Numbered from the stretch's first letter, positions 2,140 to 59,832 are shown. The stretch: DNA of 64,000 bases from a bacterium (GCA_021785125.1 JAJYGF010000004.1:67124-131123), one strand, 5' to 3'. Notes: generated by a model not told the origin, from the sequence alone. Translations and numbers: made by a program.

Positions 2140-2207
2140 AAATTGTCCGTTATAGCCAAGGGCGCGTTTGATGCTATAATAAAAACGTCAGCATACAATT
2201 TTTTGCC

Positions 2208-3026
2208 ATGAAAAAAACAAAAATATTTTTAGCTTTATCGATTGGCCTGTTTGCTTTGCCGCTTTTCTCCTCCGCCAGCTTCGATTACACCCCGATGGAA
2301 CCGATTCCGGGATTCGCGACAAGCGGAGATTTCCAAAGTTACATCTCGGCCGTATATAAGTTCGGCATTTGGACGGTCGGGATCGCCGCCATGCTGATGA
2401 TCATGATCGGCGGTTATATGTATATGATGTCCGCCGGAAACAATGCTAGCATGCAAAAAGCCAAAGGGGTGATCACTGACGCGATTGTCGGATTGATTTT
2501 GGCACTCACTTCTTATCTCATCCTTTACGAAATAAATCCGAATTTGGTCAATATCAATCTGGGCAGCATCGGCGGAGGAAGCGGCAGCGTGAGCACAGGA
2601 AATAAAACTTGTAACAATAACAATTGCGGTCAAGTCGCTTCCGCTTGCCAAGCCAACTCGATTGGAATTGAACCAGCTGTATTGCAGTCCTTGTTTATTG
2701 CGGGCGAGGGATGCAATAAAGCCGCTTCAGGCACTGGCCCTTGTGGATACTCCCAGGTCAACGCTACTAATCGTAAGGCTATCTGCGGTATGACAGGAAC
2801 AGCTGCGCAAACTTGTGCCGAAATACAAGGTAACCTTCAAGAAGATGTTGACTGTGGAGCTAAAGTGGTCCAAGACCAGCGAAGATCCTCCAAATGTCAG
2901 GGTGGAATTATTAACACAGCATCTTGTTATGCTACCGGACCTGGAGCAAACTTTGCTTGTGGAAATCCGAACGATACCAATTATTGCAACAGGGTTGCTA
3001 ATTATTATTCAACATGCAGTAAATAA
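2208..3026 (+). CDS. TrbC/VirB2-like 'T4SS pilin' family protein with Cys-rich C-terminal extension
   Basis: Signal peptide plus two hydrophobic segments, and the family-typical block GIWTVGIAAMLMIMIGGYMYMMSAGNNASMQKAKGVITDAIVGLILALTSYLI. The C-terminal ~120 aa contain more than 15 Cys. Confidence 0.6.
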   Translation: MKKTKIFLALSIGLFALPLFSSASFDYTPMEPIPGFATSGDFQSYISAVYKFGIWTVGIAAMLMIMIGGYMYMMSAGNNASMQKAKGVITDAIVGLILALTSYLILYEINPNLVNINLGSIGGGSGSVSTGNKTCNNNNCGQVASACQANSIGIEPAVLQSLFIAGEGCNKAASGTGPCGYSQVNATNRKAICGMTGTAAQTCAEIQGNLQEDVDCGAKVVQDQRRSSKCQGGIINTASCYATGPGANFACGNPNDTNYCNRVANYYSTCSK

Positions 3027-12465: not shown

Positions 12466-13839
12466 ATGACTAACGAGGAGCTTTGGCAAGCTGCTTTGGG
12501 GGAAATCGAGCTTTCTATTTCAAAGGCTAATTTTATTACGTGGTTTAAAAACACGTCGATTCTGTCCAACAAAGACGGCCGAGTAGTTATTGCCGTACCT
12601 AACGGCTTTGCCAAAGAGTGGCTGGAAAATAAATATAATCTTTATATTTTACGGGCTTTGCGCAATACCCAGAACGATATCCGGGAAGTTTCTTGCACGA
12701 TTGCCACCCTTCAGGACAATTTTAAAGAACAGCATTCCGTGGACGCAATTGTAGCCCCCAAAAAACCGATTCCAGTTCCTCCATTGGAAAAAACCCCCCA
12801 AATAAGCCAGGAAAATAATTTAAATCCCAAATATACTTTTGAAAACTTCATTATTGGCGGAAACAATGAACTGGCCAGAGCCGCCTGCTATGCCGTTTCT
12901 CAAAATTTAGGCCGTACTTACAATCCGCTTTTCATTTACGGCGGCGTCGGGCTGGGCAAAACTCACCTTTTGCAATCCATCGGCAATGAAATCATCAAAA
13001 AAGATCAGTCCAGAAAGGTAAAATACATCACCTCGGAAAGATTCACCAATGAATTGGTGGATGCCATACGCACCCAAAAAATCAATGAATTCAAGGAATA
13101 CTATCAGAAAATCGACCTTTTAATCATCGACGATGTTCAGTTTTTATCAGGTAAAGAAAAGACGCAAGAGGAGTTTTTTCACATATTTAACTATTTGCAT
13201 CAATTCAACAAACAAATAGTTTTGAGCAGCGATCGAGCGCCTAAGGCTATCCCCACCCTCGAAGAAAGATTGAGATCCCGCTTTGAAGGAGGAATGATTG
13301 CCGATGTGAGCAAAGCCGACTTTGAAACAAGATTGGCTATTTTGACAAAAAAGGCGCATGACGAAGGCTTAAACATAACCAAGGAAGCTTTAAATTTCAT
13401 TGCTGAAAATATAACCAATAATATTCGGGAATTAGAAGGAGCTTTGAACCGTGTTTCGGTTTCCGCCCAACTAAGCAACCAGGAGCTGGATCTAAAATAC
13501 GTCTCTTTTTTATTATCCAACCTCATTTCCAGTGGTAAGAAAAAGGGTATAACCCACAAAAACATCATTGACGCGGTTTCCGGTTTTTATGATATCAATC
13601 CTAATGACTTAATCGCCAAAAATCGAAAAAAGGAGGTTGCCAAACCCAGACAAATCGCTATGTTTCTTATGCGCAGCGAATTGCAATATTCTTATCCGGG
13701 AATAGGTGAAAAATTGGGCGGAAGGGACCACACCACCGCCATTCACGCTTTCGAAAAAATATCAAAAGAATTGGAATATAATGAAAAATTAATCGAGGAA
13801 TTATCCTCATTGAAAGAGCGCTTATACTCCATTACTTGA
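12466..13839 (+). CDS. dnaA: Chromosomal replication initiator DnaA
   Basis: Walker A GGVGLGKTHLL, the sensor and box VII region, and a C-terminal DnaA-box-binding domain (RQIAMFLMRSELQYSYPGIGEKLGGRDHTTAIHA). Confidence 0.95.
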   Translation: MTNEELWQAALGEIELSISKANFITWFKNTSILSNKDGRVVIAVPNGFAKEWLENKYNLYILRALRNTQNDIREVSCTIATLQDNFKEQHSVDAIVAPKKPIPVPPLEKTPQISQENNLNPKYTFENFIIGGNNELARAACYAVSQNLGRTYNPLFIYGGVGLGKTHLLQSIGNEIIKKDQSRKVKYITSERFTNELVDAIRTQKINEFKEYYQKIDLLIIDDVQFLSGKEKTQEEFFHIFNYLHQFNKQIVLSSDRAPKAIPTLEERLRSRFEGGMIADVSKADFETRLAILTKKAHDEGLNITKEALNFIAENITNNIRELEGALNRVSVSAQLSNQELDLKYVSFLLSNLISSGKKKGITHKNIIDAVSGFYDINPNDLIAKNRKKEVAKPRQIAMFLMRSELQYSYPGIGEKLGGRDHTTAIHAFEKISKELEYNEKLIEELSSLKERLYSIT

Positions 13840-13845
13840 TAAATT

Positions 13846-29665: not shown

Positions 29666-29953
29666 ATGCTAGAGTCCCTTGAAGCTACTATTCGGCTTTA
29701 TAAAAAAGGTATGGCAATGCCAAGCGGTTCACAAAGAGAGCGGGCATTGACATGGGCTTGGCTCGGAATCTTTTACCTCTTCTTGAGCATGCCGTTTTGC
29801 GCAGCATTAATTTATTGGGGCTTAGTGGAATCACTGACCAGCAGAATTCTTGCTGCGACAATGTCAGCGCTTATGGCCATGTCTATGCTAGCCGTCCTTT
29901 GGCATAATGGAAAATACATGTGCTTCGAAAACGAAAGCCTCGATCCTGAATAG
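29666..29953 (+). CDS. Small membrane protein (hypothetical)
   Basis: Two TM segments and a plausible RBS (aaaggaggg). Its last 6 codons plus 3' flank are duplicated at 32148. Confidence 0.4.
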   Translation: MLESLEATIRLYKKGMAMPSGSQRERALTWAWLGIFYLFLSMPFCAALIYWGLVESLTSRILAATMSALMAMSMLAVLWHNGKYMCFENESLDPE

Positions 29954-30016
29954 GAAAGGGGCTTTATTTTTTAGACAATTAGTCAAGTTTTGGCATATGC
30001 AAGAATCTGACTAATA
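29935..30016 (+). repeat. ~85 bp direct repeat, copy 1 (includes the 3' end of ORF 29666-29953, a hairpin-T tract and the 36 bp nested palindrome)
   Basis: AAGCCTCGATCCTGAATAGGAAAGGGGCTTTATTTTTT-AGACAATTAGTCAAGTTTTGGCATATGCAAGAATCTGACTAAT. Copy 2 at 32150 is about 85% identical. Confidence 0.7.
29979..30014. repeat. 36 bp nested palindrome TTAGTCAA-N5-(T/G)GCATATGCAA-N5-TGACTAA, copy 1 of 3
   Basis: ttagtcaaGTTTTggcatatgcaaGAATCtgactaa; the arms and the 12 bp core are conserved and the spacers vary. Copies at 32196-32231 and 44611-44646. Confidence 0.65.
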
Positions 30017-30017
30017 T

Positions 30018-30770
30018 TTATTTTATTTCTTTTCCGCTTTTCCAAGCGATTTCAAAGATCGGTTTGATTGAATTCACGAGCGATTCGGATTCAATGACGA
30101 CAATGAAAGGCTCTTCTTCCAGTGAAGTTATGTCAAGCTTGTTATCATATAAGGTAAAATCCATGGAAAAATCTTTCACATCCGGCAGATAGCGGACCTC
30201 TTGGTTCAATTCTTTGAATTTTCTCATTATTTCCCGATTGAATTCATTGTTTGAAACTAAATGTCTGCCCCTCTGGAGATTTATCAGACCTTTTCTATAG
30301 TTGTTTATCCATTCATCTATGACTTTTGGAAAAACTTTGTCTATCTTTTCATAAGAAGAAATGAAAAATGCATCTTTGGCTTCGTTCATTTCTTTGTAAA
30401 CATTCAGAATCCCTTCTTTTGTCTCATGATAAATTATTTTCGGCCTCACTTTTCCTTTGTTGTGCAAGGTTCGCAACATCGGCAGCATCTCTGAAAAATT
30501 TTTGGTCGTTGTCCGAAGCTGAGTCAAAATAACAGAGGGGTCGAGGGCATGGTAGGTGTTTATCTTTTTATTCGGTACCTCATTCGCATAACCTCGTTTA
30601 ATGAGTCCTTCGAGCAAAACATAAATGATTGAGCGTTTCAGTCCGGTCACTTTTGATATTTCCGTCACGTTGCCTTGCCCCAATTCTAAAAGGGCCAAAT
30701 ATACTTCGGCTTCTTTTTGAGTGAAACCGGTCTGTTCCAATAATTTTACTAGATCTTGATCCATAGGCAT
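30018..30770 (-). CDS. TrmB-family transcriptional regulator
   Basis: LGFTQKEAEVYLALLELGQGNVTEISKVTGLKRSIIYVLLEGLIKRGYA (TrmB N-terminal HTH). The track start at 30794 is a TTG; the first ATG (MPMDQ) is used here. Confidence 0.7.
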   Translation of the reverse strand: MPMDQDLVKLLEQTGFTQKEAEVYLALLELGQGNVTEISKVTGLKRSIIYVLLEGLIKRGYANEVPNKKINTYHALDPSVILTQLRTTTKNFSEMLPMLRTLHNKGKVRPKIIYHETKEGILNVYKEMNEAKDAFFISSYEKIDKVFPKVIDEWINNYRKGLINLQRGRHLVSNNEFNREIMRKFKELNQEVRYLPDVKDFSMDFTLYDNKLDITSLEEEPFIVVIESESLVNSIKPIFEIAWKSGKEIK

Positions 30771-32149: not shown

Positions 32150-32236
32150 AAGCCTCGATCCTGAATAGGAAAGGGGCTTTAATTTTTTCAGAAGATTAGT
32201 CAATTTCTTGCATATGCAATCGGTTGACTAATTTTT
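32150..32236 (+). repeat. ~85 bp direct repeat, copy 2 (a non-coding duplicate of the ORF 29666-29953 3' end, plus palindrome copy 2 at 32196-32231)
   Basis: AAGCCTCGATCCTGAATAGGAAAGGGGCTTTAATTTTTTCAGAAGATTAGTCAATTTCTTGCATATGCAATCGGTTGACTAAT. The in-frame TAA 5 codons upstream shows it is a relic, not a gene end. Confidence 0.7.
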
Positions 32237-34174
32237 TCATATCGATAAAACAAATCTGTTTAACAAATTGTTTGTTGCGGCGAATATATTTTCCACAAGA
32301 CTGACTGCCCAATGTTTTCTGGCAGTCGGTTTTGAAAAATAATAAACATCGTTAAAATTTCGGAGAGATTTTTCCCGGGCTAATTTTATCGGCAGTTCTT
32401 TCTCCGGCGAATAGCTCAACAATTTTATTTCAATGTCTTTCTTCGAGCCATCGGCGGAATATTTTCCGAGGCTGTTTTTGATTTCCGCATCAGAATATAT
32501 CTTTTGCGCGTCCTGCGCGGAAGCGGGTTTTGGCGAAATGGGAACGTGGCCGGCCGATACGGCCAAGGCCGGATCATTTCGAGACAGTTTCCAAAACCAT
32601 CCCCTCCTTGTCTTTTCATAAACCGCGTCTTCCGGAACGGACTTTCCGGGGACGGCATATTTCACATGCGAAGCCGTTTTCCCGTTCGGATAGCGCAATT
32701 CGACCTTCGAGGACTTGTTGTTCAGGGAAAACTTGCAATCAGCGTATGTCAGGCGGAGAGTTTGGCCGGGTTTTATGAACAGATCGTCGGTGATTTTGTG
32801 ATTTTGCAATTTTTTGTTGCCGGTCGCCAGGCTCCAGCCTTTCAAATTTATTTTTTTCTTGTAATTGTTTTCGATCTCGACCCACTCGTTACCCTTGTCT
32901 TTGCCTTTCGGGTTGGGCGACAAGGCGATTATTTTGACGCTAAATTTCGGAAATTTTTCCACTTTTATTTTGAATGTCTCAAGTTTGTCTTCGCTGCCGT
33001 CGAAAGTTTCGAGAGTGGCCGTATATTTCCCCGGCTTCTCATATTTGTGCCGAGTGTTTTGCTGGTAACTTTTGTGCGAATCGCCGAAATCCCACGTGTA
33101 TTTTATCTTGTTGCGGTCAGAACTTGTCTTTTTCGCCTGAAAATCAGCGTAAATGCCGACGTAGATTTTTTCTTCCACCTCCGTTTCTATTCGGGAAGGC
33201 TTGCCGAATTTGTTTTTCTTTCCCGGTGTCAGGAATTTGCTCCAGCGCCATGCCTGTCCGTCGTAGCCGTAGGATAAATTTTCTTTGGCGCCGTCGTAAG
33301 AAATGGCGGAGACCGCTTGTCCGTCCGGAGAGAAAAGCGTGACTGATTCCGCGCCGGAATTGTTCAAGGCGAATTTATAGTCCGATTTGTAAACCACCAG
33401 ATAGCCTTTTGATTTTACGGAAGTGCCTTTCGGAAAGATGTATCTCCCGGTTTTAGAGCCGTCCCGCAAGATCCAATCGGACAAATCAGCGCTTCCATCC
33501 GCCGGATTGTATAATTCAATGAATTCATCCTGTCCGCTGGCAGGATCAGGCAGGATTTCATTTATAGCCATGTCTTTAGAATAAGTCATAGGTGCCGGCG
33601 TTTTTATTTTCGGGCATTTTTTCAGTTCGTCTTCTTCCGTGAAGGAAGAATTTTTCGGCGGATACGCCGATATCGCATCCAGGGCATCGCCATTTCTTTT
33701 TAAGGTTTGCGATTTTTCCGGATTGGGAGCATGGACGGTGTTTTTATAAGGATCCGTATTGGATCCCCAAGTCACGGAATCGATCTGGTTTCCGGACTTG
33801 TCAAAAAGCGCCAAACTGTAGTCGTTTGAAAGATAGTAAGTCTTGGTCGCATAGTCCGGGGCATCGTTTAAAGTGCCGCTAATATTCTCCCATAAATAAT
33901 AGCCTTTGGCCGGAATGCTGTTTTTCAGCGTGCCGATGGAAGCTTCCGAACCGCCCTTGGTGCGTCTTTTTAATTTCCATCCGGCCAATCCGACGGAGTC
34001 GCAAGCCGGGTTGTATAGCTCGATGAAATCATCGTCCGAATCGCTTCCGCCGGTCTGCACCGCGCTGATTACGATCGAACTGCTGTCGGCGCAAGAAGTC
34101 GGCGCAAAATTAAAAATTCCCGCCACGACGAAGAGGGGAAATAAAATGGCATACTTTTTGGTTTTATTTTTCAC
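32237..34174 (-). CDS. Secreted multi-domain protein with three lamin-tail-domain (LTD)-like repeats and a PKD domain
   Basis: Signal peptide; DDDFIELYNPACDSVGLAGWKL, QDEFIELYNPADGSADLSDWIL and GNEWVEIENNYKKKINLKGWSL (LTD signatures); YTWDFGDSHKSYQQNTRHKYEKPGKYTATLETFDGS (PKD). Confidence 0.65.
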   Translation of the reverse strand: MKNKTKKYAILFPLFVVAGIFNFAPTSCADSSSIVISAVQTGGSDSDDDFIELYNPACDSVGLAGWKLKRRTKGGSEASIGTLKNSIPAKGYYLWENISGTLNDAPDYATKTYYLSNDYSLALFDKSGNQIDSVTWGSNTDPYKNTVHAPNPEKSQTLKRNGDALDAISAYPPKNSSFTEEDELKKCPKIKTPAPMTYSKDMAINEILPDPASGQDEFIELYNPADGSADLSDWILRDGSKTGRYIFPKGTSVKSKGYLVVYKSDYKFALNNSGAESVTLFSPDGQAVSAISYDGAKENLSYGYDGQAWRWSKFLTPGKKNKFGKPSRIETEVEEKIYVGIYADFQAKKTSSDRNKIKYTWDFGDSHKSYQQNTRHKYEKPGKYTATLETFDGSEDKLETFKIKVEKFPKFSVKIIALSPNPKGKDKGNEWVEIENNYKKKINLKGWSLATGNKKLQNHKITDDLFIKPGQTLRLTYADCKFSLNNKSSKVELRYPNGKTASHVKYAVPGKSVPEDAVYEKTRRGWFWKLSRNDPALAVSAGHVPISPKPASAQDAQKIYSDAEIKNSLGKYSADGSKKDIEIKLLSYSPEKELPIKLAREKSLRNFNDVYYFSKPTARKHWAVSLVENIFAATNNLLNRFVLSI

Positions 34175-36536: not shown

Positions 36537-39500
36537 TCAGAGATCCGTTACCCGTTCCACTTCCTCAATCGTTGTTTCGCCTTCGATGACTTTCAGGATG
36601 CCGTCTTGCGCCATCGTGATCATGCCATTTTCGACAGCCTTGGCTTGCAGTTCCGAAGTGATGGCGCCTTGCATGATGAGCGCCTGGATGTCTTTGTCGA
36701 TCACGAACACTTCGCTCACTGTCGTTCGGCCCTTGTAGCCGATGCTGTTGCATTTTTTACAACCCTTCGGTTTGAAAATTTCCCCGATCGGAGGAATTTC
36801 CACGCCGGCTTTCGGCGAAATTGTTTTCAAGGCAGATTCGATCTTATTTTTTTCTTCCTCAGTCAACTCAGCCTTTTTTTTGCAAGAACATAATTTGCGC
36901 ACGAGGCGTTGCGCCATGAACGCGTTCACGCTCGATGCGATGTCGGAAGGGGACACGCCCATGTTGAGCATTCTTTGCACGGCGCCGGCCGCATTGTTAG
37001 TGTGGATGGTGGAAAGTACGAGGTGTCCGGTGAGGGCGGCTTGTACCGCGATTTGCGCCGTTTCATTGTCACGGATCTCACCGATCATCATGATGTCCGG
37101 ATTTTGGCGGAGCAGGGCACGAAGCGCGGTGGAAAAAGTGTATCCTTCTTTGTCATTGACCGGCGTCTGCAGGATTCCCTCGATCTGATATTCGATTGGA
37201 TCTTCCACGGTGATGATCTTCACTTCCGGTTTGTTGAGGACATTCAGGATACTATAAAGCGTCGTGGTTTTTCCACTGCCGGTTGGGCCGGTGTTCAAAA
37301 ACACGCCGTTCGGTTTGGAAATCATCTCAATAATCTTGTTCTTGTTCTGTTCACGGATGCCGATCTTGTTGATGTCCAATTCCTGGGTAGCTTTCGAAAG
37401 AAGGCGCATGACGACCGTTTCGCCGTATCCGCCGAGGATTATGGATACGCGCACATCGACCGATCTTTCGCGGACATCCTGGATATCTTCGCTGAATTTT
37501 ATGGAGAAGCGGCTATCGATGACGCCTTCGCGCACTTCTGTCTTTACGCCGGAAAGTAATTTTATTTCACCTAGCAGGTTTGGATATTCATTGAGCGGAA
37601 TGGCGATGATGGTTTGCAAAATGCCGTCGATGCGGAACCTGATTTTGACGTCGTTGGCTCCCGGTTCGATGTGAATGTCGCCGACGCTCAAAAGAGAAGC
37701 GGCGGAAAATATGATTTTATTGATCTCGGTTGTTTTGGAGGAATTGACTACTGCCTGCAGTTTGGTAAAATCGGACAAATTTTCCCTGGCTTTTTCATAA
37801 TTTTCCGGATCGACCAGAATGCCCTTACCCAAAGTCTGCGACATCAGTTTTTCATAGATCGTTTCCAAGAAATCTCCTTCGCCGGTCACGCGTTTCACCT
37901 CATCGATCGAAGTGATGCCTTTGACGGCCTTCAAGACTCCGTCCTGGAGCATGGTGATCATGCCGGCTTCCAAAGCGGCCATGGTCAATTCCGTTTCGCC
38001 GGCCAGGTTTAAGATCAATTTTTCAATCTCTTCATTGATTGTCAAAACCTCAAAGATTCCGATGCGGCCCTTGTAGCCGAGATTGTTGCATTTCGGACAG
38101 CCTTTCGGACGATAGAGCTTGTCGATCTCTTTCGGCACGTCCAACTTGGCCTTCGGGGAAATGATGGATAATATTTTTTTAATGGAATCGATCGATTCTT
38201 TGGCAGGCACATATTCTTCTTTGCAATCGCAGAGCTTTCTGACCAAGCGCTGGCCGATCAATGCGTTCGTGGAGGGTGCGATCAAGGACGGCTTGATGCC
38301 CATTTCAAGAAGACGCGGAATGGTGCCGACTGCGCTGTTGGTGTGGATGGTAGAAAGAACCAGGTGTCCGGTCAGAGCGGAATTGACGGCGATGTCAGCC
38401 GTCTCCTCATCTCGGATCTCGCCAACCAGAATGACATCCGGATCTTGGCGTACGATGGCACGCAGACCGGAGGCGAAAGTATAGCCGCGGGATTTTTCGA
38501 TCTGCGTCTGCGAGATGCCTTTGACTTCATATTCGATCGGGTCTTCGATCGTGATGATCTTGGTCTCCGGATCATTCAATTTGTTGATAATGGCGTAAAG
38601 CGTCGTGGTTTTTCCACTGCCGGTCGGACCGGTTGTCAGAATCATGCCGTTTGGAGCCTGGATCTGTTTTTGTATCTCTTCATAAGCCAATCCCTGAAGT
38701 CCCAGATTTTCCACGCCGACCTGGATGGAATCAGGATCCAGAAGTCGCATGACGACACTCTCGCCATAGTTGCCCGGAATGACCGAGACGCGGATGGCGA
38801 TTTTTTTTTCTTCAATATTGACTTCGAAAGTTCCGTCCTGGGCGATGTCGCGCAGATTGAGCTTCATGTCCGACATCATTTTGATCCTGGTGACGACCGT
38901 CTTGAAAACGTTGAGCGGCAGGAAGGCGACGTCATGCAGGACGCCATCGATGCGATAGCGCAGGCGGAACTCTTTTTCTTGCGGTTCGATATGCACGTCG
39001 CTGGCGCCGAGTTTGTAGGCGCCGCCCATGATGACGTTCAAGACTTGCGTGGTCGGCAATTCGTTGATGCGCTGTTTCAGGGTGACGAGATCCTTCAGAT
39101 ATTGGTCAAATTTCTTCAGATCCTCGCCGGTCAAATTGACGTCCAACTGGCTCAAAATGTCCGTAAAGACGATTTTTTTATAGCGTTCTTGGATCTTGGC
39201 CATGTTGTATTGAGAGACGACAAAAATTTTGGCGTCCCAGCCGTTGGCCGTCTTAAGCATCTCGACATAATCCGCCGTTTCGGCCGCGGTCGGATCGGTC
39301 GAGACGAAAGTGATTTTTTTGCCGGTCTTCTGGATGCAGGCCAGATTGAATTTGTGAGAATCTTCCTCGCTCAAAACTTTAATGCTGTCGTTTGAGATAG
39401 GAATTAAATTTGTGTCGACATAAGGCAGGCCGATGGCGGCCGCAAATGCGGAAGCCTGTTCTTCTTCGGATTGATGGCGCAGTTTGGTCAAGACTTTTTT

Positions 39501-39560
39501 GGTTTCTTTTTCTTTTTGCGTCTCTTCGGTTTGCGCTTGGTTTTGAATTATTTTAGGCAT
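36537..39560 (-). CDS. Tandem-fused double GspE/PilB-type secretion ATPase (two complete ATPase cores in one 1007-aa polypeptide)
   Basis: Half 1: T2SSE_N-like N-domain, Walker A TGPTGSGKTTT, Asp box DPDVILVGEIRD, His box LTGHLVLSTIHTN and a tetra-Cys Zn site (CDCK...CPKC). Half 2: TGPTGSGKTTT, NPDIMMIGEIRD, LTGHLVLSTIHTN and CSCK...CKKC. Confidence 0.85.
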   Translation of the reverse strand: MPKIIQNQAQTEETQKEKETKKVLTKLRHQSEEEQASAFAAAIGLPYVDTNLIPISNDSIKVLSEEDSHKFNLACIQKTGKKITFVSTDPTAAETADYVEMLKTANGWDAKIFVVSQYNMAKIQERYKKIVFTDILSQLDVNLTGEDLKKFDQYLKDLVTLKQRINELPTTQVLNVIMGGAYKLGASDVHIEPQEKEFRLRYRIDGVLHDVAFLPLNVFKTVVTRIKMMSDMKLNLRDIAQDGTFEVNIEEKKIAIRVSVIPGNYGESVVMRLLDPDSIQVGVENLGLQGLAYEEIQKQIQAPNGMILTTGPTGSGKTTTLYAIINKLNDPETKIITIEDPIEYEVKGISQTQIEKSRGYTFASGLRAIVRQDPDVILVGEIRDEETADIAVNSALTGHLVLSTIHTNSAVGTIPRLLEMGIKPSLIAPSTNALIGQRLVRKLCDCKEEYVPAKESIDSIKKILSIISPKAKLDVPKEIDKLYRPKGCPKCNNLGYKGRIGIFEVLTINEEIEKLILNLAGETELTMAALEAGMITMLQDGVLKAVKGITSIDEVKRVTGEGDFLETIYEKLMSQTLGKGILVDPENYEKARENLSDFTKLQAVVNSSKTTEINKIIFSAASLLSVGDIHIEPGANDVKIRFRIDGILQTIIAIPLNEYPNLLGEIKLLSGVKTEVREGVIDSRFSIKFSEDIQDVRERSVDVRVSIILGGYGETVVMRLLSKATQELDINKIGIREQNKNKIIEMISKPNGVFLNTGPTGSGKTTTLYSILNVLNKPEVKIITVEDPIEYQIEGILQTPVNDKEGYTFSTALRALLRQNPDIMMIGEIRDNETAQIAVQAALTGHLVLSTIHTNNAAGAVQRMLNMGVSPSDIASSVNAFMAQRLVRKLCSCKKKAELTEEEKNKIESALKTISPKAGVEIPPIGEIFKPKGCKKCNSIGYKGRTTVSEVFVIDKDIQALIMQGAITSELQAKAVENGMITMAQDGILKVIEGETTIEEVERVTDL

Positions 39561-39644: not shown

Positions 39645-40775
39645 CTATGCTCCCACCTCTTTTATTTTTTTAGAAACTATTTCGGCGGCTTCTTTCAGGT
39701 TTCCGACGGGCAAGCGTATTTCCAAAAGATCTTTTTTGAGCGCGCCGTCCAGAAACAAATGGGTTCTTTTCAACGACGCGAGATCGACCGACTCAATAAG
39801 GGCTATGGAAGAATCCGGAGTGTCGTTATACAGAGCGATAAATATTTTTCCTTCGCTGTAATTTTCCCGCAACTTTTCCAAAATCACGGTCAGATCTTCC
39901 GGGGTCGAGCGGCTTTGCACGAAATCTTCCACGGATAGTTCTGTCCAGACGGTTTTGGATTGCTCGTCCCAATTTAGGTTGGCCATGGCACGGCCCCATA
40001 ATTTCAAGATGTGGAGCGGCTGGGTCTTGTATAGCCAGCGCACGATTGATTGCTGATCGGCACCTTTGTCCATGAGTGTTGCGGCAGCCAAGAGCGCTTT
40101 CGGCGTCGTGTTTTTTTTCTGGAAGCTGTCAGTGGCGCTGATGAGTCCGGTTAGAAGGCAATCAGCGACGATTTTGTCAACCGCGCCATAATCGATCGAA
40201 TCCAGAGTCGCGCTTAAAATTTCACTGCAAGAAGAAGCGGTGATGTCCACCAGATTGATCTGGCCAAAATTATCATTGTCGCTCCGATGGTCAATATTTA
40301 CGATCGGCACTTCAAAAAAAAGATCCGGATTTTTGTCATATAGCCGGCCTAGTTTTTCCAAGTCCGGGCTGTCAATCACAACAATCAAGTCATATTTAAA
40401 CTTAGCCAGGATAAAAGAAAAATCGCGCGGATCAATAGCGCCCTTTTCCGGCGTCAGGTAGATATTGTATTTTCCATCGCCCTCTTCCGTTTTGATGCCG
40501 GTGATTTTGTTGTAAGTCGTATTGAATGACAGGACAAAGTCGCGCGCGCCGGAAATTTCATTCAAAATTCTTTCCGGCTTCGGCAAAAAATCATATTTTT
40601 GAAAGAGATGATTGGAGAAGGCGATGGTAGGGCGGACACCTTTTTTTTCTAGAAAAAAATAAAGCGCCCAAGCACTGCCAATCGCGTCGCCGCTGGGATT
40701 TTCCGGAATGAGAATGAGAATCTCTTTGGATTTTTCCAAAAAATTCTTGAATTGTTCCCGAGGCTCCAAAGTCAT
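39645..40775 (-). CDS. DHH-family phosphoesterase (NrnA/RecJ-like)
   Basis: DAIGSAWALYFFL (motif I-II region) and VPIVNIDHRSDNDNFG (the DHH-type motif is DHR here); length fits. Confidence 0.65.
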   Translation of the reverse strand: MTLEPREQFKNFLEKSKEILILIPENPSGDAIGSAWALYFFLEKKGVRPTIAFSNHLFQKYDFLPKPERILNEISGARDFVLSFNTTYNKITGIKTEEGDGKYNIYLTPEKGAIDPRDFSFILAKFKYDLIVVIDSPDLEKLGRLYDKNPDLFFEVPIVNIDHRSDNDNFGQINLVDITASSCSEILSATLDSIDYGAVDKIVADCLLTGLISATDSFQKKNTTPKALLAAATLMDKGADQQSIVRWLYKTQPLHILKLWGRAMANLNWDEQSKTVWTELSVEDFVQSRSTPEDLTVILEKLRENYSEGKIFIALYNDTPDSSIALIESVDLASLKRTHLFLDGALKKDLLEIRLPVGNLKEAAEIVSKKIKEVGA

Positions 40776-40887: not shown

Positions 40888-41358
40888 ATGAAAAAAGAAA
40901 TAATTACAAACAATTTCCAGGAAACCCAAAGGTTGGGGACGGAGCTGGCGCACAAGTTGCAGGGCGGAGAAGTTATCTGTTTGGAGGGCGATCTGGGCAG
41001 CGGTAAAACCACTTTCACCCAAGGCTTATTGGCCGGCTTAGGCGTGGAAGGGCCGTATACCAGTCCTACCTTTCTTATAATGAAGCATTATAAGAAAGAA
41101 TTTCCAATTTCCAATTTCCAATTTCCAAATAAATCTCAAAAAGCAAATTCTCAAATCCAAAATATATATCATGTGGATGCGTATCGCATCGGCCCAGACG
41201 ATCTTTTAAATTTAGGCTGGGAAGAAATCATTGCTGACAAAAAGAATGTCGTAATCGTGGAATGGGCGGAACGGATAAAAGACATCCTGCCGGAAGATTG
41301 TTTGAAAATAAAATTTGAATGGATGGATGAAAAGCGGAGAAAAATTATTTTTGAATAA
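40888..41358 (+). CDS. tsaE: tRNA threonylcarbamoyladenosine biosynthesis protein TsaE, with an in-frame repeat-encoded insertion
   Basis: EVICLEGDLGSGKTTFTQGL...SPTFLIMKHY...HVDAYRI. The (AATTTCC)4 heptamer array at 41099-41126 encodes the extra FPISNFQFPN. Confidence 0.85.
   Translation: MKKEIITNNFQETQRLGTELAHKLQGGEVICLEGDLGSGKTTFTQGLLAGLGVEGPYTSPTFLIMKHYKKEFPISNFQFPNKSQKANSQIQNIYHVDAYRIGPDDLLNLGWEEIIADKKNVVIVEWAERIKDILPEDCLKIKFEWMDEKRRKIIFE
41099..41126 (+). repeat. Perfect (AATTTCC)x4 heptanucleotide tandem repeat inside tsaE
   Basis: aatttccaatttccaatttccaatttcc. A degenerate version of the same array lies inside ORF 54963-55400 at ~55217-55245. Confidence 0.8.
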
Positions 41359-44493: not shown

Positions 44494-44560
44494 AGCTTCG
44501 CGTAACACGCGGGGCTTTTTTCTTTTAAGCGCTGGCTAAAATAGCAGCGCTTTTTTATTT
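44494..44560 (+). terminator. Two consecutive hairpin terminators; the second (AGCGCTGGCTAAAATAGCAGCGCTTTTTT) is duplicated at 45618
   Basis: aaagcttcgcgtaacacgcggggctttttt followed by agcgctggctaaaatagcagcgcttttttattttt. Confidence 0.6.
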
Positions 44561-44610
44561 TTCAAAAAGTGTTATTTTATGACGGCCGTCTGAATATGAT
44601 AAAAATCCAA

Positions 44611-44646
44611 TTAGTCAAAATATTGCATATGCAAAAATCTGACTAA
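44611..44646. repeat. 36 bp nested palindrome, copy 3 (upstream of the GHKL/STAS operon)
   Basis: ttagtcaaAATATtgcatatgcaaAAATCtgactaa. Confidence 0.65.
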
Positions 44647-44736
44647 TAACCAGAGAGTTTTCTTTATAAAGCCTATATATTTTGACGAAGAAAGTGTTTT
44701 GCGATAGAGTTATATAAGAAAAATAATGCGATTACT

Positions 44737-45312
44737 ATGTCAGTTGATTTGGAAAAATTAGCCTTTGAATGGATGTCTGCCAATCCCGAAGAAGCTCAGA
44801 AAGAAAGCGAGTATTATTGCCCGACACGGGATATTTTTCAGGCGCGGTTGGAGAAAATGACGCGCAATTTATTGCGAGAAAATATTGTTCCGGAGGAAGA
44901 TGTATACATATTGTCGGCTATGGCAGGAGAAATCGGCAACAATTCATTTGATCACAATCTTGGAAAATGGCCGGATGTGATCGGAATTTTTTTTGGATAT
45001 GAAATATTGGGCGGTAAAATAAAATCCATCCTGGCTGATCGCGGGCAAGGAATTTTGGCAACATTGAAAAAAGTAAAGCCGGAGCTTGATCGGGAAAGTG
45101 AGGCGATAAAAACAGCTTTTTTGGAAAAAATATCCGGCAGGGCGCCGGAAAACAGAGGCAACGGACTTAAGTTCGTAAAAGAAAATATCGAAGCGAAAAA
45201 GATGCATTTGACCTTTATTTCCGGCAATGCCAAGATGGAATTGAACGACAGAATGGAAATTTTGGAAATTGAAAATAAAGTTCAAGGGTGCTTGGCGATA
45301 TTAAGTTTTTAA
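44737..45312 (+). CDS. GHKL-superfamily (HATPase_c) ATPase/kinase-like protein, RsbW/SpoIIAB-like
   Basis: N box EIGNNSFDHN, G1 box DRGQG, G2 box GNGLKF. No sensor or DHp domains. Confidence 0.6.
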   Translation: MSVDLEKLAFEWMSANPEEAQKESEYYCPTRDIFQARLEKMTRNLLRENIVPEEDVYILSAMAGEIGNNSFDHNLGKWPDVIGIFFGYEILGGKIKSILADRGQGILATLKKVKPELDRESEAIKTAFLEKISGRAPENRGNGLKFVKENIEAKKMHLTFISGNAKMELNDRMEILEIENKVQGCLAILSF

Positions 45313-45316
45313 GCGT

Positions 45317-45598
45317 ATGCGCATCGAACTGAAAAAATTTGGAGAAATTCTGATTTCTCGTCCGGCCGGAAGAGAAGCGTATTTAGCCATGTCGGCTTAT
45401 GTGACAAAAGATTTGGATGAAAACGAACCGATCGAGGTCGATTTTTCCGGTGTAAAAGTTCTGACTCCTTCATGGGCTGATGAAGTAATTGTTCCGCTTG
45501 CCCGAAAATTCAAAAATGTAAAGCTTGTTAATGCGGAAAATGCAACTGTTCAGGCGACGCTCAAAACTTTGCGGGAATATTCTGATTTGAAGATTTAA
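45317..45598 (+). CDS. STAS-like (DUF4325-type) small protein, putative partner of the GHKL ATPase
   Basis: 93 aa. MRIELKKFGEILISRPAGREAYLAM...IEVDFSGVKVLTPSWADEVIV matches the STAS/DUF4325 pattern. Starts 4 nt after the ATPase stop. Confidence 0.5.
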   Translation: MRIELKKFGEILISRPAGREAYLAMSAYVTKDLDENEPIEVDFSGVKVLTPSWADEVIVPLARKFKNVKLVNAENATVQATLKTLREYSDLKI

Positions 45599-45617
45599 AC
45601 TTTTTTCGTACGAAAAT

Positions 45618-45650
45618 CGCTGGCTAAAATACCAGCGCTTTTTATTTTTT
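45618..45650 (+). terminator. Hairpin terminator, near-identical to 44528-44560
   Basis: tcgctggctaaaataccagcgctttttatttttt. Confidence 0.6.
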
Positions 45651-45721
45651 CAAAAAATGCTAGAATAGCTTCACTAGCTTTTTAGCTGCATTAGCTTTTT
45701 AGCCTTAAAACAAAGTAAAAA

Positions 45722-54923: not shown

Positions 54924-54962
54924 AAACAAAAGAATGGGTCATGCCCGTTCTTTTATTAGGCT

Positions 54963-55400
54963 ATGCAATTTAAACTTCCCAAAAACAACGACAAATATCA
55001 GTGGACGCTTCATTCTGTCGAGAAGATGAAATACTACGGTCTATCAGAGCAGAAAGTTTTGGGCATCATCCGCCGACCGAAAAGAAAAGAGGAAGGCATC
55101 GTGAAAAATACGATCGCGGTCATGCAACCCGTTTCACCGAAGCTGGATAAGGATGGCAAAACTATCTGGAAGCAGGAAATCTGGGCCATGTACCAAACCT
55201 CGCTGAAGCGAGGAATTTCCAAATCCCAATTTTCAATTTCCAAACAAAATAAAAATTCAAAAATACAAAACCTTCAAAAGTTATTGCATCCGGACAGGAT
55301 AAAAATCATCAGCGCCTGGCGCTATCCCGGCGTCAGTCCGCAAAATAATCCGGTTCCTGAAAGCATTCTGCGCGAACTGGCGGAAGCCGGTCTTGGGTGA
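54963..55400 (+). CDS. Hypothetical protein with an internal degenerate heptad-repeat-encoded low-complexity segment
   Basis: 145 aa. The segment ISKSQFSISKQNKNSKIQN is encoded by a degenerate (TTTCCAA)n array related to the one in tsaE. Confidence 0.35.
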   Translation: MQFKLPKNNDKYQWTLHSVEKMKYYGLSEQKVLGIIRRPKRKEEGIVKNTIAVMQPVSPKLDKDGKTIWKQEIWAMYQTSLKRGISKSQFSISKQNKNSKIQNLQKLLHPDRIKIISAWRYPGVSPQNNPVPESILRELAEAGLG

Positions 55401-57444: not shown

Positions 57445-57531
57445 GGAAGGGTCGCCTAGTGGTTTATGGCACCGCCTTGGAAAGGCGGCATACTATAAAA
57501 GGTATCGGGAGTTCGAATCTCCCCCCTTCCG
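57445..57531 (+). tRNA. tRNA-Ser (anticodon GGA), class II with a long variable arm
   Basis: Acceptor GGAAGGG/CCCTTCC, D-arm GCC-tagtggtttat-GGC, anticodon stem CCGCC/GGCGG with loop ttGGAaa, an 18 nt variable arm, T-arm GGGAG-ttcgaat-CTCCC, discriminator G. CCA is not encoded. Confidence 0.8.
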
Positions 57532-57643
57532 CAGTGACAACTTTTTATCGCACAGACTCAAACAGCCGAGACTAAGCGGCGACTCGAGCGCTTATAAAAA
57601 GCTAAAAAATACGAAGCAATTTCTGCTCCGTATTTTTTGTTTT

Positions 57644-58975
57644 CTACTCTTCAATCAAGGTTATCTTTTTGTCTTTGTAATTCAACCGGCTGCGCAGATT
57701 GGCCAGTAGTTCTCGCTTGTCGGACACACTACCCTCTTTGAATAGGTATTTGGCATATTGGCGGATATCGACTTCATTTTCTTCCACTAAATTCTGGCCA
57801 CTTTTTCCATTGACCACTTTTTGCAGTTTGTTGAATCGACGAATTTCATCTTCCAGTTTCTGCCGCATTCCCAGCTCGTTGATGTCCACTTTGTCTATGA
57901 TTTTTAGCAGTTCTTCAATCAATTCTTCCTCCCGGATATATTTGTTTTTGCAGTGCCGATCCCTAGCTCGCGAGCAGGAGTAATAGATATACCTGGCGTG
58001 CGTACCATCTTTGAGCTGTTTGTATTTTTCCTCAGCTGATATGCCCGATCCGCAGTAGCCGCAGGTGAATAATTTAGTAAAGGCGAATTCTTTATTTTCT
58101 CTGACAATTTTATCTCTTTTGAGCCACGCTTGGGCTTTTTCAAATACCTCTTGGGTAATTATCGGATCATGTTTTCCGGTATACCAGTTACCGCTTTTGG
58201 CTGGATATTCAAAGACTCCATAATAGAAAGGATTATCCAGCGTCCGATACACTCCAGCCAGTGTCAGCGGCTTATTGCCTCTCGTGTAAAAATTTAATTC
58301 GAATCTGAGCCAGTGATATATCTTTCTGCCTGAATAATGTTCGTAAGCTACTTTTTCAAATATCTTTTTGATAATCGGCGCTCTTTGCGGATCGAGAAGA
58401 AGTTGGCATTTTTTATCCATGTGTTTCTGGTTGAGATATCCCAGCGGCGCGACCGTCGGCCAGAGTCCCATCTCGCATCGGGCGCGAAGACCTCTTTTCA
58501 CATTGATGCCTCGGTTGTCATTTTCCAGCTTGGCTTGCGAGCCAAGAATCATCAGCAGGAACTTTTCATTTGGAGAATTGGTGAATCGTTGCCCGTAAGT
58601 TCGGATTTCTTGCAGTAATTTAGCATCCATAAGGTCGACTATTTTTCCTAGGTCACCGGCATTTCTAGAAATACGATCCGGCGCCCAGGTCATAATACCA
58701 TTAAATTTGCCGGATTTGATTTCTTCCACAATTTCATTAAAGACTGGTCTTTGCCCAGTCTCCTTGGCGCTGTGCGATTCTCGTTTTATTTCCACGATTT
58801 CCAGATTTTCTCGCTCCGCCAGTTGCATCATTTCTTTTATTTGGGAGTCGATGGAAAGCACCTGTCTTTCCTCCGACTCGGTCGATTTTCGGGCATAAAG
58901 ACAGTAACGTACTGGAATCGCTACTGGCTGGGCTTGGGCTGGTAGCCCTAATTGGCTGGCATTTGGATAGCTCAT
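57644..58975 (-). CDS. Large serine recombinase (resolvase/integrase family)
   Basis: Catalytic N-domain VRYCLYARKSTESEERQVLSIDSQ...MTWAPDRISRNAGDL, recombinase domain GLWPTVAPLGY, and a Zn-ribbon CGYCGSGIS...YYSCSRARDRHC. Lies 112 bp from tRNA-Ser. Confidence 0.85.
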   Translation of the reverse strand: MSYPNASQLGLPAQAQPVAIPVRYCLYARKSTESEERQVLSIDSQIKEMMQLAERENLEIVEIKRESHSAKETGQRPVFNEIVEEIKSGKFNGIMTWAPDRISRNAGDLGKIVDLMDAKLLQEIRTYGQRFTNSPNEKFLLMILGSQAKLENDNRGINVKRGLRARCEMGLWPTVAPLGYLNQKHMDKKCQLLLDPQRAPIIKKIFEKVAYEHYSGRKIYHWLRFELNFYTRGNKPLTLAGVYRTLDNPFYYGVFEYPAKSGNWYTGKHDPIITQEVFEKAQAWLKRDKIVRENKEFAFTKLFTCGYCGSGISAEEKYKQLKDGTHARYIYYSCSRARDRHCKNKYIREEELIEELLKIIDKVDINELGMRQKLEDEIRRFNKLQKVVNGKSGQNLVEENEVDIRQYAKYLFKEGSVSDKRELLANLRSRLNYKDKKITLIEE

Positions 58976-59200
58976 AGGTTTATTGGTTATTTCTTACTAC
59001 CCAATGAATGACGCAATCCTTTGAAGGAGTCAAGAGCGTCCCGAGTAGGTAAGCTGTTGACAACTAATAGCTTAAAAGGCTCTTGAAAACTTGCTGGAAA
59101 TTGCTTGAATTGTGGAATTACAAAAAAGTCCATTTTAGCATTTACCAAAGCCACAATTTAAGCTAAACTTAAGCCGAGGTAATTCAAATTAATAAAAATT

Positions 59201-59674
59201 ATGAATAATTCAAAAAGCGTTTTTGACGAAAAATTTACGAATCTCTATAGCCTTACTAAAACATTGAAGTTTGAATTGAAACCAGTGGGGAAAACATTGG
59301 ATAATATGCGCATGCATTTGAAATATGATAAGAATTTACAAACATTTTTAGTTGATCAGGAAATCAAAGACGCGTATCAAATTCTTAAGCCCGTATTTGA
59401 CAAACTACATGAAGAATTTATCACGAAAAGTTTGGAGAGTGAAAAAAATAAAAGCCTTTTTAATTTTGAAAATTATTTAGAGTTGCGGAAAAAATTGGCA
59501 TTAATAAATAAAAAAAAGGAAGAAGTAGAATATAAAAAAGTAGAAAGTGATTTTACAAAAGAAGAAATAAAATTGCGGAAAATGTTTGATGATGTTTGGA
59601 AAAATGAAGGGGAAAATTTTAAAAACAAAGTCGGTGTAAATGAAAAAGGGAAAGCAATCTTACTACTTTTGTAG
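59201..59674 (+). pseudogene. cas12a: Cas12a (Cpf1) N-terminal fragment: WED-I plus the start of REC1 only, 157 aa, truncated
   Basis: VFDEKFTNLYSLTKTLKFELKPVGKTLDN...DQEIKDAYQILKPVFDKLHEEFI aligns with Fn/AsCas12a residues ~4-80 (F.[21 protein letters not shown]...KDYKKAKQIIDKYHQFF). The ORF stops at 157 aa and its last codons run into a CRISPR repeat. Confidence 0.7.
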
Positions 59675-59799: not shown

Positions 59800-59832
59800 A
59801 CTTAGAACAAACAAAATCAACAAAAAACTGAC

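What the first reader, a model, noticed from the sequence alone, without database searches (positions are those of the whole stretch)
29979..30014. 36 bp nested palindrome present three times (29979, 32196, 44611)
The outer 8 bp arms (TTAGTCAA/TTGACTAA) and the inner 12 bp perfect palindrome (TTGCATATGCAA) are conserved in all three copies. The two 5 bp spacers differ completely. This pattern points to selection on the symmetric parts, as expected for a dimeric or tetrameric DNA-binding protein site, or for a two-stem RNA structure. Copies 1 and 2 lie between convergent genes; copy 3 lies ~90 bp upstream of the GHKL/STAS operon. No repeat-associated gene (transposase) accompanies them, so this is not an obvious MITE.
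Basis: seen in the sequence. Interest (0 to 1): 0.6.

Follow-up and report, generated by a model that had tools for sequence, protein, structure and literature searches.

The report
Orphan operator sites of PaaX-like regulator
The 36-bp palindrome is real and is found across Moranbacteria-type candidate-phyla bacteria, where it most likely serves as the DNA-binding site of an uncharacterised PaaX-like protein whose gene it normally brackets; that gene is missing from this window.

Summary
All three copies exist as described (0 expected by chance). The same element (TTAGTCA-N7-GCATATGC-N7-TGACTAA) was found in 57 further loci, almost all Moranbacteria/Parcubacteria MAGs, and in no viral contig.

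Only two gene families recur beside it. One is a ~205-aa PaaX-like protein (hydrophobic N-terminus, winged-helix remnant, Cas2-like domain). The other is TrmB-like regulators. The PaaX-like gene is almost always bracketed by two copies, and the upstream copy's TTGACT arm serves as its -35 box.

Lineages with altered arms (TAATCA, GTGTAA) carry substitutions in the PaaX-like recognition helix. The window-type TrmB helix stays invariant across those same lineages.

Hairpin function is not supported. There is no G:U bias and no U-tract. Within one genome the two halves of a site are no more alike than halves of different sites. Canonical terminators sit next to the sites.

Best reading: a PaaX-type long-spaced operator, compare E. 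coli TGATTC-N27-GAATCA. The window holds three solo copies. Copy 2 is at a conserved position after the LTD gene, where relatives carry the PaaX-like gene or a solo site. No PaaX-like gene lies within 81 kb.

Solo sites favour gene 3' ends (14 convergent, 3 divergent), and this is unexplained.

The parts
29979..30014 (.). Copy 1 of the 36-bp site (TTAGTCAAGTTTTGGCATATGCAAGAATCTGACTAA). It lies 3 nt after the stop of the TrmB-family gene and 6 nt from a bidirectional terminator hairpin.
   Evidence: The [site + terminator] module aligns with the module that follows the PaaX-like gene in L071. No site is present in the TrmB-YebC spacer of L065-L067.
32196..32231 (.). Copy 2 (TTAGTCAATTTCTTGCATATGCAATCGGTTGACTAA). 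It lies 5 nt after the stop of the LTD/PKD gene and next to the second copy of the terminator hairpin. At this position relatives carry site-PaaX-like-site (L065, L066) or a solo site (L071).
44611..44646 (.). Copy 3 (TTAGTCAAAATATTGCATATGCAAAAATCTGACTAA). It lies 90 nt upstream of the ATG of a 191-aa/93-aa gene pair and 36 nt upstream of that pair's predicted -35 box.
   Evidence: It is not conserved upstream of the homologous pair in L068.
29935..29972 (+). 38-nt terminator hairpin with T-run, copy A. It forms a [terminator + site] module with copy 1.
   Evidence: family D17, 97% identical to copy B. One search shows homologous terminators beside sites in L071 and L067.
32150..32187 (+). 38-nt terminator hairpin with T-run, copy B. 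It forms a module with copy 2.
30018..30770 (-). TrmB-family wHTH regulator (247-aa type). It is a core gene in conserved synteny directly upstream of YebC-RuvC. It neighbours the site but is probably not its reader.
32237..34174 (-). LTD/PKD-domain protein gene. Its 3' end is the conserved landmark for copy 2.
44527..44574 (+). 48-nt hairpin/terminator repeat. Its partner lies at 45615-45662 (88% identical). Together the pair brackets copy 3 plus the 191-aa/DUF4325 gene pair, a low-GC segment.
   Evidence: (family D11).
44737..45598 (+). Two-gene cassette downstream of copy 3: a 191-aa protein with no family hit and a 93-aa DUF4325 STAS-like protein. The predicted promoter is TTGACG-17-TAGAGT at 44682-44710.
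   Evidence: (4590 homologues).

Best explanation
The element is a double-stranded-DNA operator for a lineage-specific PaaX-like protein of Moranbacteria and related Patescibacteria. That protein is about 205 aa: a hydrophobic N-terminal segment, then a recognition helix with a beta-wing, then a Cas2-like dimerisation domain. It lacks the effector-binding C-terminal domain of true PaaX.

Proposed mechanism (inferred): a dimer, or dimer of dimers, places its recognition helices on the two outer heptamers TTAGTCA / TGACTAA, which are 29 bp apart centre to centre. This resembles E. coli PaaX on TGATTC-N27-GAATCA. The central GCATATGC is a second conserved contact whose reader is unknown. The T-rich spacers are read only weakly.

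At its own gene one site overlaps the promoter, with the TTGACT arm acting as the -35 box and a -10 box 17 nt downstream. This implies autorepression. A second site follows the stop codon.

The window carries three solo copies and no PaaX-like gene within 81 kb. Copy 2 sits at the conserved LTD-3' position. Copy 1 belongs to a duplicated [site + terminator] module behind TrmB, laid out like the 3' flank of the PaaX-like gene elsewhere. Copy 3 lies in front of an inserted two-gene cassette. None has a usable -10 box.

Shown: the conservation, the gene association, the promoter overlap and the helix/arm covariation. Inferred: the binding itself, the stoichiometry, and what solo sites do at gene 3' ends (roadblock or insulator, looping partner, or architectural anchor).
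For: 1. Phyletic restriction. 25 genome loci and 32 metagenome loci carry the element, against about 0.5 expected by chance in 596 Gb for 20 fixed bases. Almost all named genome-collection loci are Moranbacteria/Parcubacteria, and there are 0 viral hits.
2. Gene association. Only two gene families recur beside the site: PaaX-like in 23 loci and TrmB-like in 13.
3. Bracketing. PaaX-like genes are bracketed by sites, 27-64 nt upstream of the start and 11-99 nt after the stop. The missing partners appear when 1-2 mismatches or lineage variants are allowed.
4. Promoter overlap. A -10 box at 16-18 nt from the TTGACT arm is present on 11 of 22 start-facing sides, against 9% background.
5. Symmetric, genome-wide arm variants: TTAATCA (L065, 3 sites), ATAATCA (L071, 3 sites), GTGTAA (L066, 2 sites). 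L069 has only a TCA/TGA remnant in the arms and a GCRATYGC centre.
6. Helix/arm covariation. The PaaX-like helix is Y-N-L-K-[KR]-[RK] in 13 TAGTCA genomes. It is N-N-L-K-Q-R in both TAATCA genomes, Y-N-L-K-K-Q in the GTGTAA genome and K-N-L-H-H-R in L069. The AlphaFold2 model places these residues on helix 65-77, directly before a beta-hairpin.
7. Family assignment. Pfam PaaX_M scores about 1e-20. There is a partial TIGR02277 PaaX match. Foldseek hits Cas2 and E. coli PaaX 8a39.
8. Precedent. E. coli PaaX binds TGATTC(N27)GAATCA and represses its own promoter (PMC9493321).
9. Half-site consensus. In one MAG with 9 sites, the two half-spacers of a site are as similar (4.44/7) as halves of different sites (4.45/7). 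This is what a half-site consensus read by a protein predicts.
10. Conservation. Solo sites persist at orthologous positions with diverged flanks.
Against: - No PaaX-like gene and no further site occur in 81 kb of this contig, so the proposed reader is not shown to exist in this genome.
- Apart from the PaaX-like promoter, sites avoid promoters: 14 convergent against 3 divergent intergenic regions. That is unusual for a transcription-factor regulon.
- None of the three window copies has a -10 box at the right spacing.
- 16 of 61 sites are perfect 36-bp palindromes, against 0.6 expected. A protein model explains this only through a strong lineage-specific half-site preference or through template-switch correction of quasi-palindromes.
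- The helix/arm covariation rests on three or four variant lineages, two of which may be close relatives.
- The wHTH part of the model has only moderate confidence (pLDDT 60-72), and the first two helices of a canonical wHTH are replaced by a hydrophobic stretch.
- No binding experiment exists.
Confidence: 0.62

Rival explanations
1. A TrmB-family regulator reads the site. This could be the adjacent 247-aa TrmB. It could also be the second TrmB-like paralogue (263-286 aa) that usually sits beside the PaaX-like gene, perhaps contacting only the constant central GCATATGC while the PaaX-like protein reads the arms.
For: A TrmB-like gene ends 3-64 nt before a site in the window and in L006, L011, L012, L025, L029, L032, L055, L060 and L071. 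TrmB-like is the second most frequent neighbour, in 13 loci. The TrmB-like/PaaX-like pairing persists when the module sits elsewhere in the genome (L069/L070). The central 8-10 bp palindrome has the size of a typical HTH-dimer site and stays constant while the arms vary.
Against: The recognition helix of the window-type TrmB (LKRSIIYVLLEGLIKRG) is essentially unchanged in genomes with TAGTCA, TAATCA and GTGTAA arms. It is also the same in L067, where the local site has decayed. No site lies in any TrmB promoter region examined. Many sites have no TrmB gene within 4-8 kb. The window TrmB is a syntenic core gene linked to YebC-RuvC, so its adjacency can be explained by shared neighbourhood.
Confidence: 0.13
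2. The element works as a nucleic-acid hairpin. This could be an RNA stem-loop in 3' UTRs acting as a terminator, a stabiliser or a processing site. It could also be a DNA cruciform or REP-like element.
For: Nearly every site faces at least one gene 3' end, often 3-60 nt after a stop codon. 16 of 61 sites are perfect palindromes with lineage-specific spacers, and within-site complementarity is 4.59/7 against 3.01 when partner halves are shuffled between sites. All window copies fold with z-scores of -2.3 to -7.1.
Against: There is no excess of G:U-compatible over A:C mismatches when sites are oriented by the upstream gene: 6 against 8 in tandem contexts and 11 against 13 in convergent ones. 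No U-tract follows the site. Separate canonical GC-rich terminators sit next to the sites. Within one genome, pairing inside a site is no better than between sites, and one group keeps a consistently asymmetric site. What is conserved is sequence, including the would-be loop, not merely pairing. The arms change in concert across all sites of a genome. Rfam gives no match.
Confidence: 0.1
3. The element is a site-specific recombination site with 14-8-14 geometry, like lox, FRT or dif. It would delimit movable gene modules, comparable to pdif modules or integron cassettes. Solo copies would then be scars or empty docking sites.
For: The [site-PaaX-like-site] unit occurs at different places in different genomes, and twice in some (L005/L016, L038). 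At the LTD 3' position the occupant is either a PaaX-like gene with sites or a single solo site. A 3.3-kb block carrying three sites lies between M48 and p148 in L012, whereas the window has M48 and p145 adjacent. Window copies 1 and 2 bound a low-GC 2.2-kb segment, and copy 3 lies in a repeat-bounded low-GC cassette.
Against: No recombinase, transposase or integrase family recurs near the sites. There are no viral hits. The window's empty M48-p145 junction has no site. Solo sites are stable at orthologous positions where flanking proteins are 44-73% identical. The fixed spacing between the arm and the -10 box, and the covariation with a DNA-binding helix, fit an operator better. The TrmB between copies 1 and 2 is a syntenic core gene, not cargo.
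Confidence: 0.1

Closest known systems
PaaX repressor and its operator in E. coli / Pseudomonas (GntR-type wHTH, Cas2-like middle domain, C-terminal effector domain; operator TGATTC-N27-GAATCA; autorepression of Px)
   Same: The operator is a long-spaced inverted repeat: 6-7-bp arms more than 20 bp apart, for a total of 36 bp against 39 bp. A site overlaps the regulator's own promoter. The protein shares the PaaX_M Cas2-like domain, and its fold matches PaaX 8a39. The arm sequences are of a similar type (xAATCA / TAGTCA).
   Different: The protein is about 205 aa and lacks the phenylacetyl-CoA-binding C-terminal domain. Its N-terminus is a hydrophobic, probably membrane-spanning segment rather than the first wHTH helices. 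The operator has an additional invariant central palindrome, GCATATGC. Half-site orientation is everted relative to E. coli. A second site follows the stop codon, and solo sites sit at gene 3' ends. No paa genes are nearby.
TrmB / TrmBL1 regulators and the Thermococcales glycolytic motif (TATCAC-N5-GTGATA)
   Same: A TrmB-family wHTH gene is adjacent. The site is palindromic. One conserved solo site lies between iPGM and enolase. Each half of the 36-mer is loosely of the 6-N5-6 type.
   Different: The TrmB helix does not co-vary with the arms. Sites lie after TrmB genes rather than in target promoters. The window TrmB scores far below the equivalog cut-offs (34 bits against 600) and lacks the sugar-binding domain length.
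REP/BIME and other intergenic palindromic repeats
   Same: Short palindromes at gene 3' ends and between convergent genes, next to terminators.
   Different: Copy number is very low. No RAYT-type transposase is associated. Sequence is conserved across species at orthologous positions. There is a specific link to one regulator gene and its promoter.
Architectural palindromic sites such as parS, matS and RacA ram sites
   Same: A handful of high-information palindromes per genome, placed where they do not interfere with promoters. The window's three copies lie 16-31 kb from dnaA and the GC-skew switch.
   Different: No ParB, MatP or RacA homologue is linked. The sequence is unrelated to parS. 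Origin-proximal clustering was not tested in complete genomes.

Membership tests
PaaX-type operator / PaaX-family regulator pair | Operator made of two short inverted arms separated by more than 20 bp | tested here: met
   TTAGTCA-N22-TGACTAA in all copies, compared with TGATTC-N27-GAATCA for E. coli PaaX.
PaaX-type operator / PaaX-family regulator pair | Cognate PaaX-family gene next to the site, with the site overlapping its promoter | tested here: met
   Met in related loci: about 18 of 20 PaaX-like genes are bracketed, and a -10 box lies 17 nt from the arm. NOT met inside the window or 81 kb of its contig.
PaaX-type operator / PaaX-family regulator pair | Protein has a PaaX wHTH, a Cas2-like middle domain and a C-terminal effector domain | tested here: inconclusive
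   The Cas2-like domain is clear (Pfam 1e-20, Foldseek). Only a recognition helix plus wing is recognisable. The C-terminal domain is absent (205 aa). The N-terminus is hydrophobic.
PaaX-type operator / PaaX-family regulator pair | Specificity residues co-vary with operator bases | tested here: met
   YNLK[KR][RK] with TAGTCA arms (13 genomes), NNLKQR with TAATCA (2), YNLKKQ with GTGTAA (1), KNLHHR with the altered site in L069.
PaaX-type operator / PaaX-family regulator pair | Direct, sequence-specific binding and repression | not testable with these tools
   Needs EMSA, footprinting or a reporter assay.
TrmB-family operator | The regulator's DNA-reading helix tracks operator changes, and the site lies in target or own promoters | tested here: not met
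   The helix is invariant across arm variants. No site lies upstream of TrmB genes.
Intrinsic terminator / structured RNA | GC-rich stem followed by a U-tract | tested here: not met
   The stem is AT-rich and no T-run follows. The terminator scan does not call it. Genuine terminators lie adjacent.
Intrinsic terminator / structured RNA | Site-specific compensatory pairing with G:U tolerance | tested here: not met
   G:U is not more frequent than A:C. Within-site similarity equals between-site similarity in one genome. No Rfam family matches.
MITE / REP element | Many dispersed copies, association with a transposase or RAYT, insertion polymorphism | tested here: not met
   3 copies in 81 kb, 9 in another MAG, no transposase family nearby, and stable orthologous positions.
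Site-specific recombination site flanking gene modules (lox/dif/attC-like) | Inverted recombinase-binding arms around a 6-8-bp core | tested here: met
   The 14-8-14 geometry is visible in the sequence. Geometry alone does not discriminate between models.
Site-specific recombination site flanking gene modules (lox/dif/attC-like) | Associated recombinase and demonstrable module gain or loss at sites | tested here: inconclusive
   No recombinase recurs nearby. The PaaX-like module is present or absent at the LTD 3' site, and a three-site block is an indel between L012 and the window.

The most novel reading that the evidence does not exclude
The ~205-aa PaaX-like protein may be a membrane-anchored, site-specific DNA-binding protein rather than an ordinary metabolic repressor. 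Its roughly 3-10 high-information 36-bp sites per genome would be deliberately placed at gene 3' ends and between convergent genes. There they could act as chromosome-to-membrane anchors or as programmed protein roadblocks and insulators in these tiny, regulator-poor CPR genomes. Alternatively, the Cas2-like domain may retain nuclease activity (a conserved FDIP aspartate), and the self-flanking sites may make the gene an excisable cassette.
Probability: 0.15. Interest if true: 0.8.

Novelty: new variant of a known kind. Interest (0 to 1): 0.5.

Why it matters
Almost nothing is known about transcriptional control or chromosome organisation in Candidate Phyla Radiation bacteria, which cannot be grown alone. 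This work yields a concrete cis-element/trans-factor pair with a specificity code (helix residues against arm bases). The pair can be tested directly in vitro with synthetic DNA and a small soluble protein.

The protein family is very highly conserved (60-70% identity, more than 500 homologues) and has an unusual architecture. The preference of its extra sites for gene ends suggests a role beyond classical repression.

For this window in particular, the three palindromes are best read as orphan sites left around a locus that has lost the regulator gene. They are not a new RNA or a mobile element.

Tried and rejected
- Rfam scan of the window: only tRNA-Ser.
- Viral-contig scan for the motif: 0 hits.
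- Profile search of the PaaX-like alignment against PDB sequences: nothing meaningful.
- Literature searches for Moranbacteria palindromes and for PaaX with Cas2-like: nothing relevant.
- Two exact-protein look-ups failed because of wrong start codons.
- Extending the contig by about 17 kb found no further site and no PaaX-like gene.
- A gamble that P0061 came from the window's genome failed, although that locus (L071) proved informative.
- A weak tblastn hit of PaaX-like to window 40413-40754 is a DHH phosphoesterase and is spurious.
- PADLOC gave no defence-system assignment for the 191-aa/DUF4325 pair.
- Testing whether copies 1 and 2 are reciprocal hybrids of two symmetric parent sites: their half-spacers do not match reciprocally (read directly from the sequences).
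- Origin-proximal clustering of sites in other genomes: only weak hints from shared genes, not conclusive.

Full report
**Observation.** A pattern search allowing 3 mismatches finds only these three, against 0 in 100 shuffles. The truly invariant parts are TTAGTCA, GCATATGCAA and TGACTAA. Position 8 and the base before GCAT vary, so the '8-bp arms' and the '12-bp perfect inner palindrome' are slightly overstated. Copies 1 and 2 are each preceded by a nearly identical 38-nt terminator hairpin with a T-run (29935-29972 and 32150-32187). They lie 3 and 5 nt after the stop codons of the minus-strand TrmB and LTD/PKD genes. Copy 3 lies 90 nt upstream of a 191-aa/93-aa gene pair. That pair, together with copy 3, is bracketed by 48-nt hairpin repeats (44527-44574 and 45615-45662).

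**Source of the window.** It comes from a Patescibacteria MAG, GCA_027428275.1, contig DAICBU010000015. dnaA and the GC-skew switch lie at about 12-14 kb.

**Distribution.** I scanned one genome per GTDB species for TAGTCA-N7-GCATATGC-N7-TGACTA. With 20 fixed bases, about 0.5 chance hits are expected in 596 Gb. The scan returned 25 loci. Almost all are Candidatus Moranbacteria/Moraniibacteriota or other Parcubacteria-type MAGs, and up to 9 sites fall in one MAG. JGI metagenomes gave 32 more loci and viral contigs gave none. This is therefore a lineage-wide, low-copy element.

**Gene neighbourhood.**
- I clustered all flanking ORFs. Only two families recur: a ~205-aa protein with the Pfam PaaX_M (Cas2-like) domain in 23 loci, and TrmB-like regulators in 13 loci including the window.
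- The PaaX-like gene is bracketed by two sites, one 27-64 nt upstream of the start and one 11-99 nt after the stop. Apparently missing partners appear when 1-2 mismatches are allowed.
- Upstream, the TTGACT of the proximal arm is followed 16-18 nt (mostly 17 nt) later by TAAAAT, TATTAT or TATAAT. This holds on 11 of 22 start-facing sides, against a 9% background. The site therefore overlaps the -35 box of the PaaX-like promoter, the classic layout of an autorepressed gene.
- E. coli PaaX binds TGATTC-N27-GAATCA and represses its own Px promoter (PMC9493321). That is the same long-spaced inverted-repeat architecture.

**Who reads the site.**
- Homologues of the window TrmB (247 aa, 60-80% identical) sit in a conserved neighbourhood: RuvB, a 74-aa gene, bPH_2, LTD, [PaaX-like], a DZR cluster on the opposite strand, TrmB, YebC, RuvC.
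- In these genomes the site has lineage-specific arms that are symmetric and shared by all copies in the genome: TTAATCA in L065 (3 sites), ATAATCA in L071 (3 sites) and GTGTAA in L066 (2 sites). L069 retains only a TCA/TGA remnant in its arms and has a changed centre, GCRATYGC.
- The TrmB recognition helix is the same in all of them.
- The PaaX-like helix changes with the arms. It is Y-N-L-K-[KR]-[RK] in 13 TAGTCA genomes, N-N-L-K-Q-R in both TAATCA genomes, Y-N-L-K-K-Q with GTGTAA and K-N-L-H-H-R in L069.
- In an AlphaFold2 model (mean pLDDT 72; Cas2-like domain above 88) these residues lie on helix 65-77, directly before a beta-hairpin. That is the recognition helix and wing of a winged helix.
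- Foldseek matches Cas2 proteins and E. coli PaaX 8a39. NCBIfam gives a partial PaaX match.
- The N-terminal 25 residues before this are strongly hydrophobic (Kyte-Doolittle 2.15 over residues 35-53). They may be a membrane anchor.

**Hairpin or protein site.**
- 16 of 61 distinct sites are perfect 36-bp palindromes with lineage-specific spacers, and within-site complementarity exceeds shuffled pairs (4.59 against 3.01 of 7). At first sight this looks like covariation.
- However, in the MAG with 9 sites the two half-spacers of a site are no more alike (4.44/7) than halves of different sites (4.45/7). Another group keeps a consistently asymmetric site. The symmetry therefore reflects a genome-wide half-site consensus.
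- Mismatches show no G:U over A:C bias when sites are oriented by the upstream gene, and no T-run follows.
- Ordinary GC-rich terminators sit next to the sites.
- Rfam has no match. Folding z-scores only restate that the sequence is palindromic.
- Template-switch correction of quasi-palindromes could also contribute to the perfect copies. This is an inference from established knowledge and was not tested.

**Context of sites.**
- Outside the PaaX-like promoter the sites favour gene ends: 29 tandem, 14 convergent and 3 divergent contexts.
- Solo sites are conserved at orthologous positions. One lies between a subtilase and a SpoIID-like gene, with flanking proteins 73% identical and the site 35/36 identical. 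Another lies after iPGM, facing enolase in L024/L051; across L024 and L043 (iPGM 44% identical) the blocks are kept and the spacers changed.
- The neighbouring genes share no functional theme.
- This distribution is not what a normal regulon looks like, and it remains unexplained. Roadblock or insulator, looping-partner and architectural roles are all possible.

**The three window copies.**
- No PaaX-like gene and no further site occur in 81 kb of the contig.
- Copy 2 occupies the position between the LTD stop and a bidirectional terminator. At that position L065 and L066 carry site-PaaX-like-site, L071 carries a solo site, and L067 has only a decayed remnant.
- Copy 1 plus its terminator aligns with the module that follows the PaaX-like gene in L071. 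It has no counterpart in the TrmB-YebC spacer of L065-L067. It is therefore lineage-specific, possibly what remains after loss of the PaaX-like gene.
- Copy 3 is not found upstream of the homologous gene pair in L068.
- None of the three has a -10 box at promoter spacing.
- All 66 block positions are intact.

**Rivals.**
- A TrmB-family reader is disfavoured for the arms, although a TrmB paralogue could still contact the constant centre.
- A recombination-site reading has some support: the 14-8-14 geometry, modules present or absent between sites, and a three-site block that is an indel between L012 and the window. No recombinase is associated, and orthologous solo sites are stable.
- The MITE/REP reading fails on copy number and on the lack of a transposase.

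**Verdict.** The 'protein-binding palindrome' interpretation is supported, but the likely reader is a PaaX-like protein that is absent from the window, not the neighbouring TrmB. The pair is an undescribed variant of the PaaX regulator/operator theme in CPR bacteria. Two features remain open: the placement of solo sites at gene ends and the possible membrane anchor.

Noticed in passing
window 57445-61900 (tRNA-Ser 57445-57532; serine recombinase 57644-58975, minus strand): A low-GC segment of about 4.3 kb begins right after tRNA-Ser and encodes a large serine recombinase plus small ORFs. It is absent from the otherwise collinear contig of GCA_027428215.1 (L064), where pyruvate kinase is followed almost directly by the DUF5666 gene. 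It looks like an integrated mobile element at the tRNA. A perfect 30-nt direct repeat (59703 and 59764) lies inside it.
   Followed up: partly
window ~12466-13840 and the GC-skew minimum near 14000: dnaA, preceded by rnpA, yidC and a KhpB-like gene, lies here, and cumulative GC skew turns at about 14 kb. The window therefore spans the replication origin. The three palindromes lie 16-31 kb to one side of it.
   Followed up: partly
window 1-3000 and upstream (L061 1-9932): A type IV secretion or conjugation-like gene set (TrbL_3, PrgI, TraC-like, VirB4/TraG-type ATPase, large unknown proteins) runs into the start of the window.
   Followed up: no
window 36537-39560 (minus strand): A 1007-aa protein contains two tandem T2SSE (PilB-like) ATPase modules. 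The internal DNA repeats at 1341-nt spacing (families D4, D6, D10, D16) reflect this internal duplication.
   Followed up: no
Its pairing with a DUF4325 STAS-like 93-aa protein is very widespread in Patescibacteria (4590 homologues at 60-76% identity). Here the pair is bracketed by 48-nt hairpin repeats in a low-GC patch, suggesting a horizontally moving two-gene module of unknown function.
   Followed up: partly
window 41098-41133 and 55213-55248: A TTTCCAA-type short tandem motif (GAATTTCCAATTTCCAATTTCCAATTTCCAAATAAA) occurs twice, 14 kb apart, at 89% identity.
   Followed up: no
L071, L068, L069 (related loci): Moranbacteria carry several TrmB-like paralogues (244-286 aa) clustered in the ruv/LTD/YebC neighbourhood. 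One subtype stays next to the PaaX-like gene even when the pair sits elsewhere in the genome, which suggests the two proteins are functionally coupled.
   Followed up: partly
L012 2322-5654 compared with window 54924-54962: In MAG CAYTIK01 a 3.3-kb block (site, PaaX-like, site, two genes, TrmB-like, site) lies between the M48 peptidase and a 148-aa gene. These two genes are adjacent, 39 nt apart, in the window. The regulator module is therefore an indel between the two genomes.
   Followed up: partly
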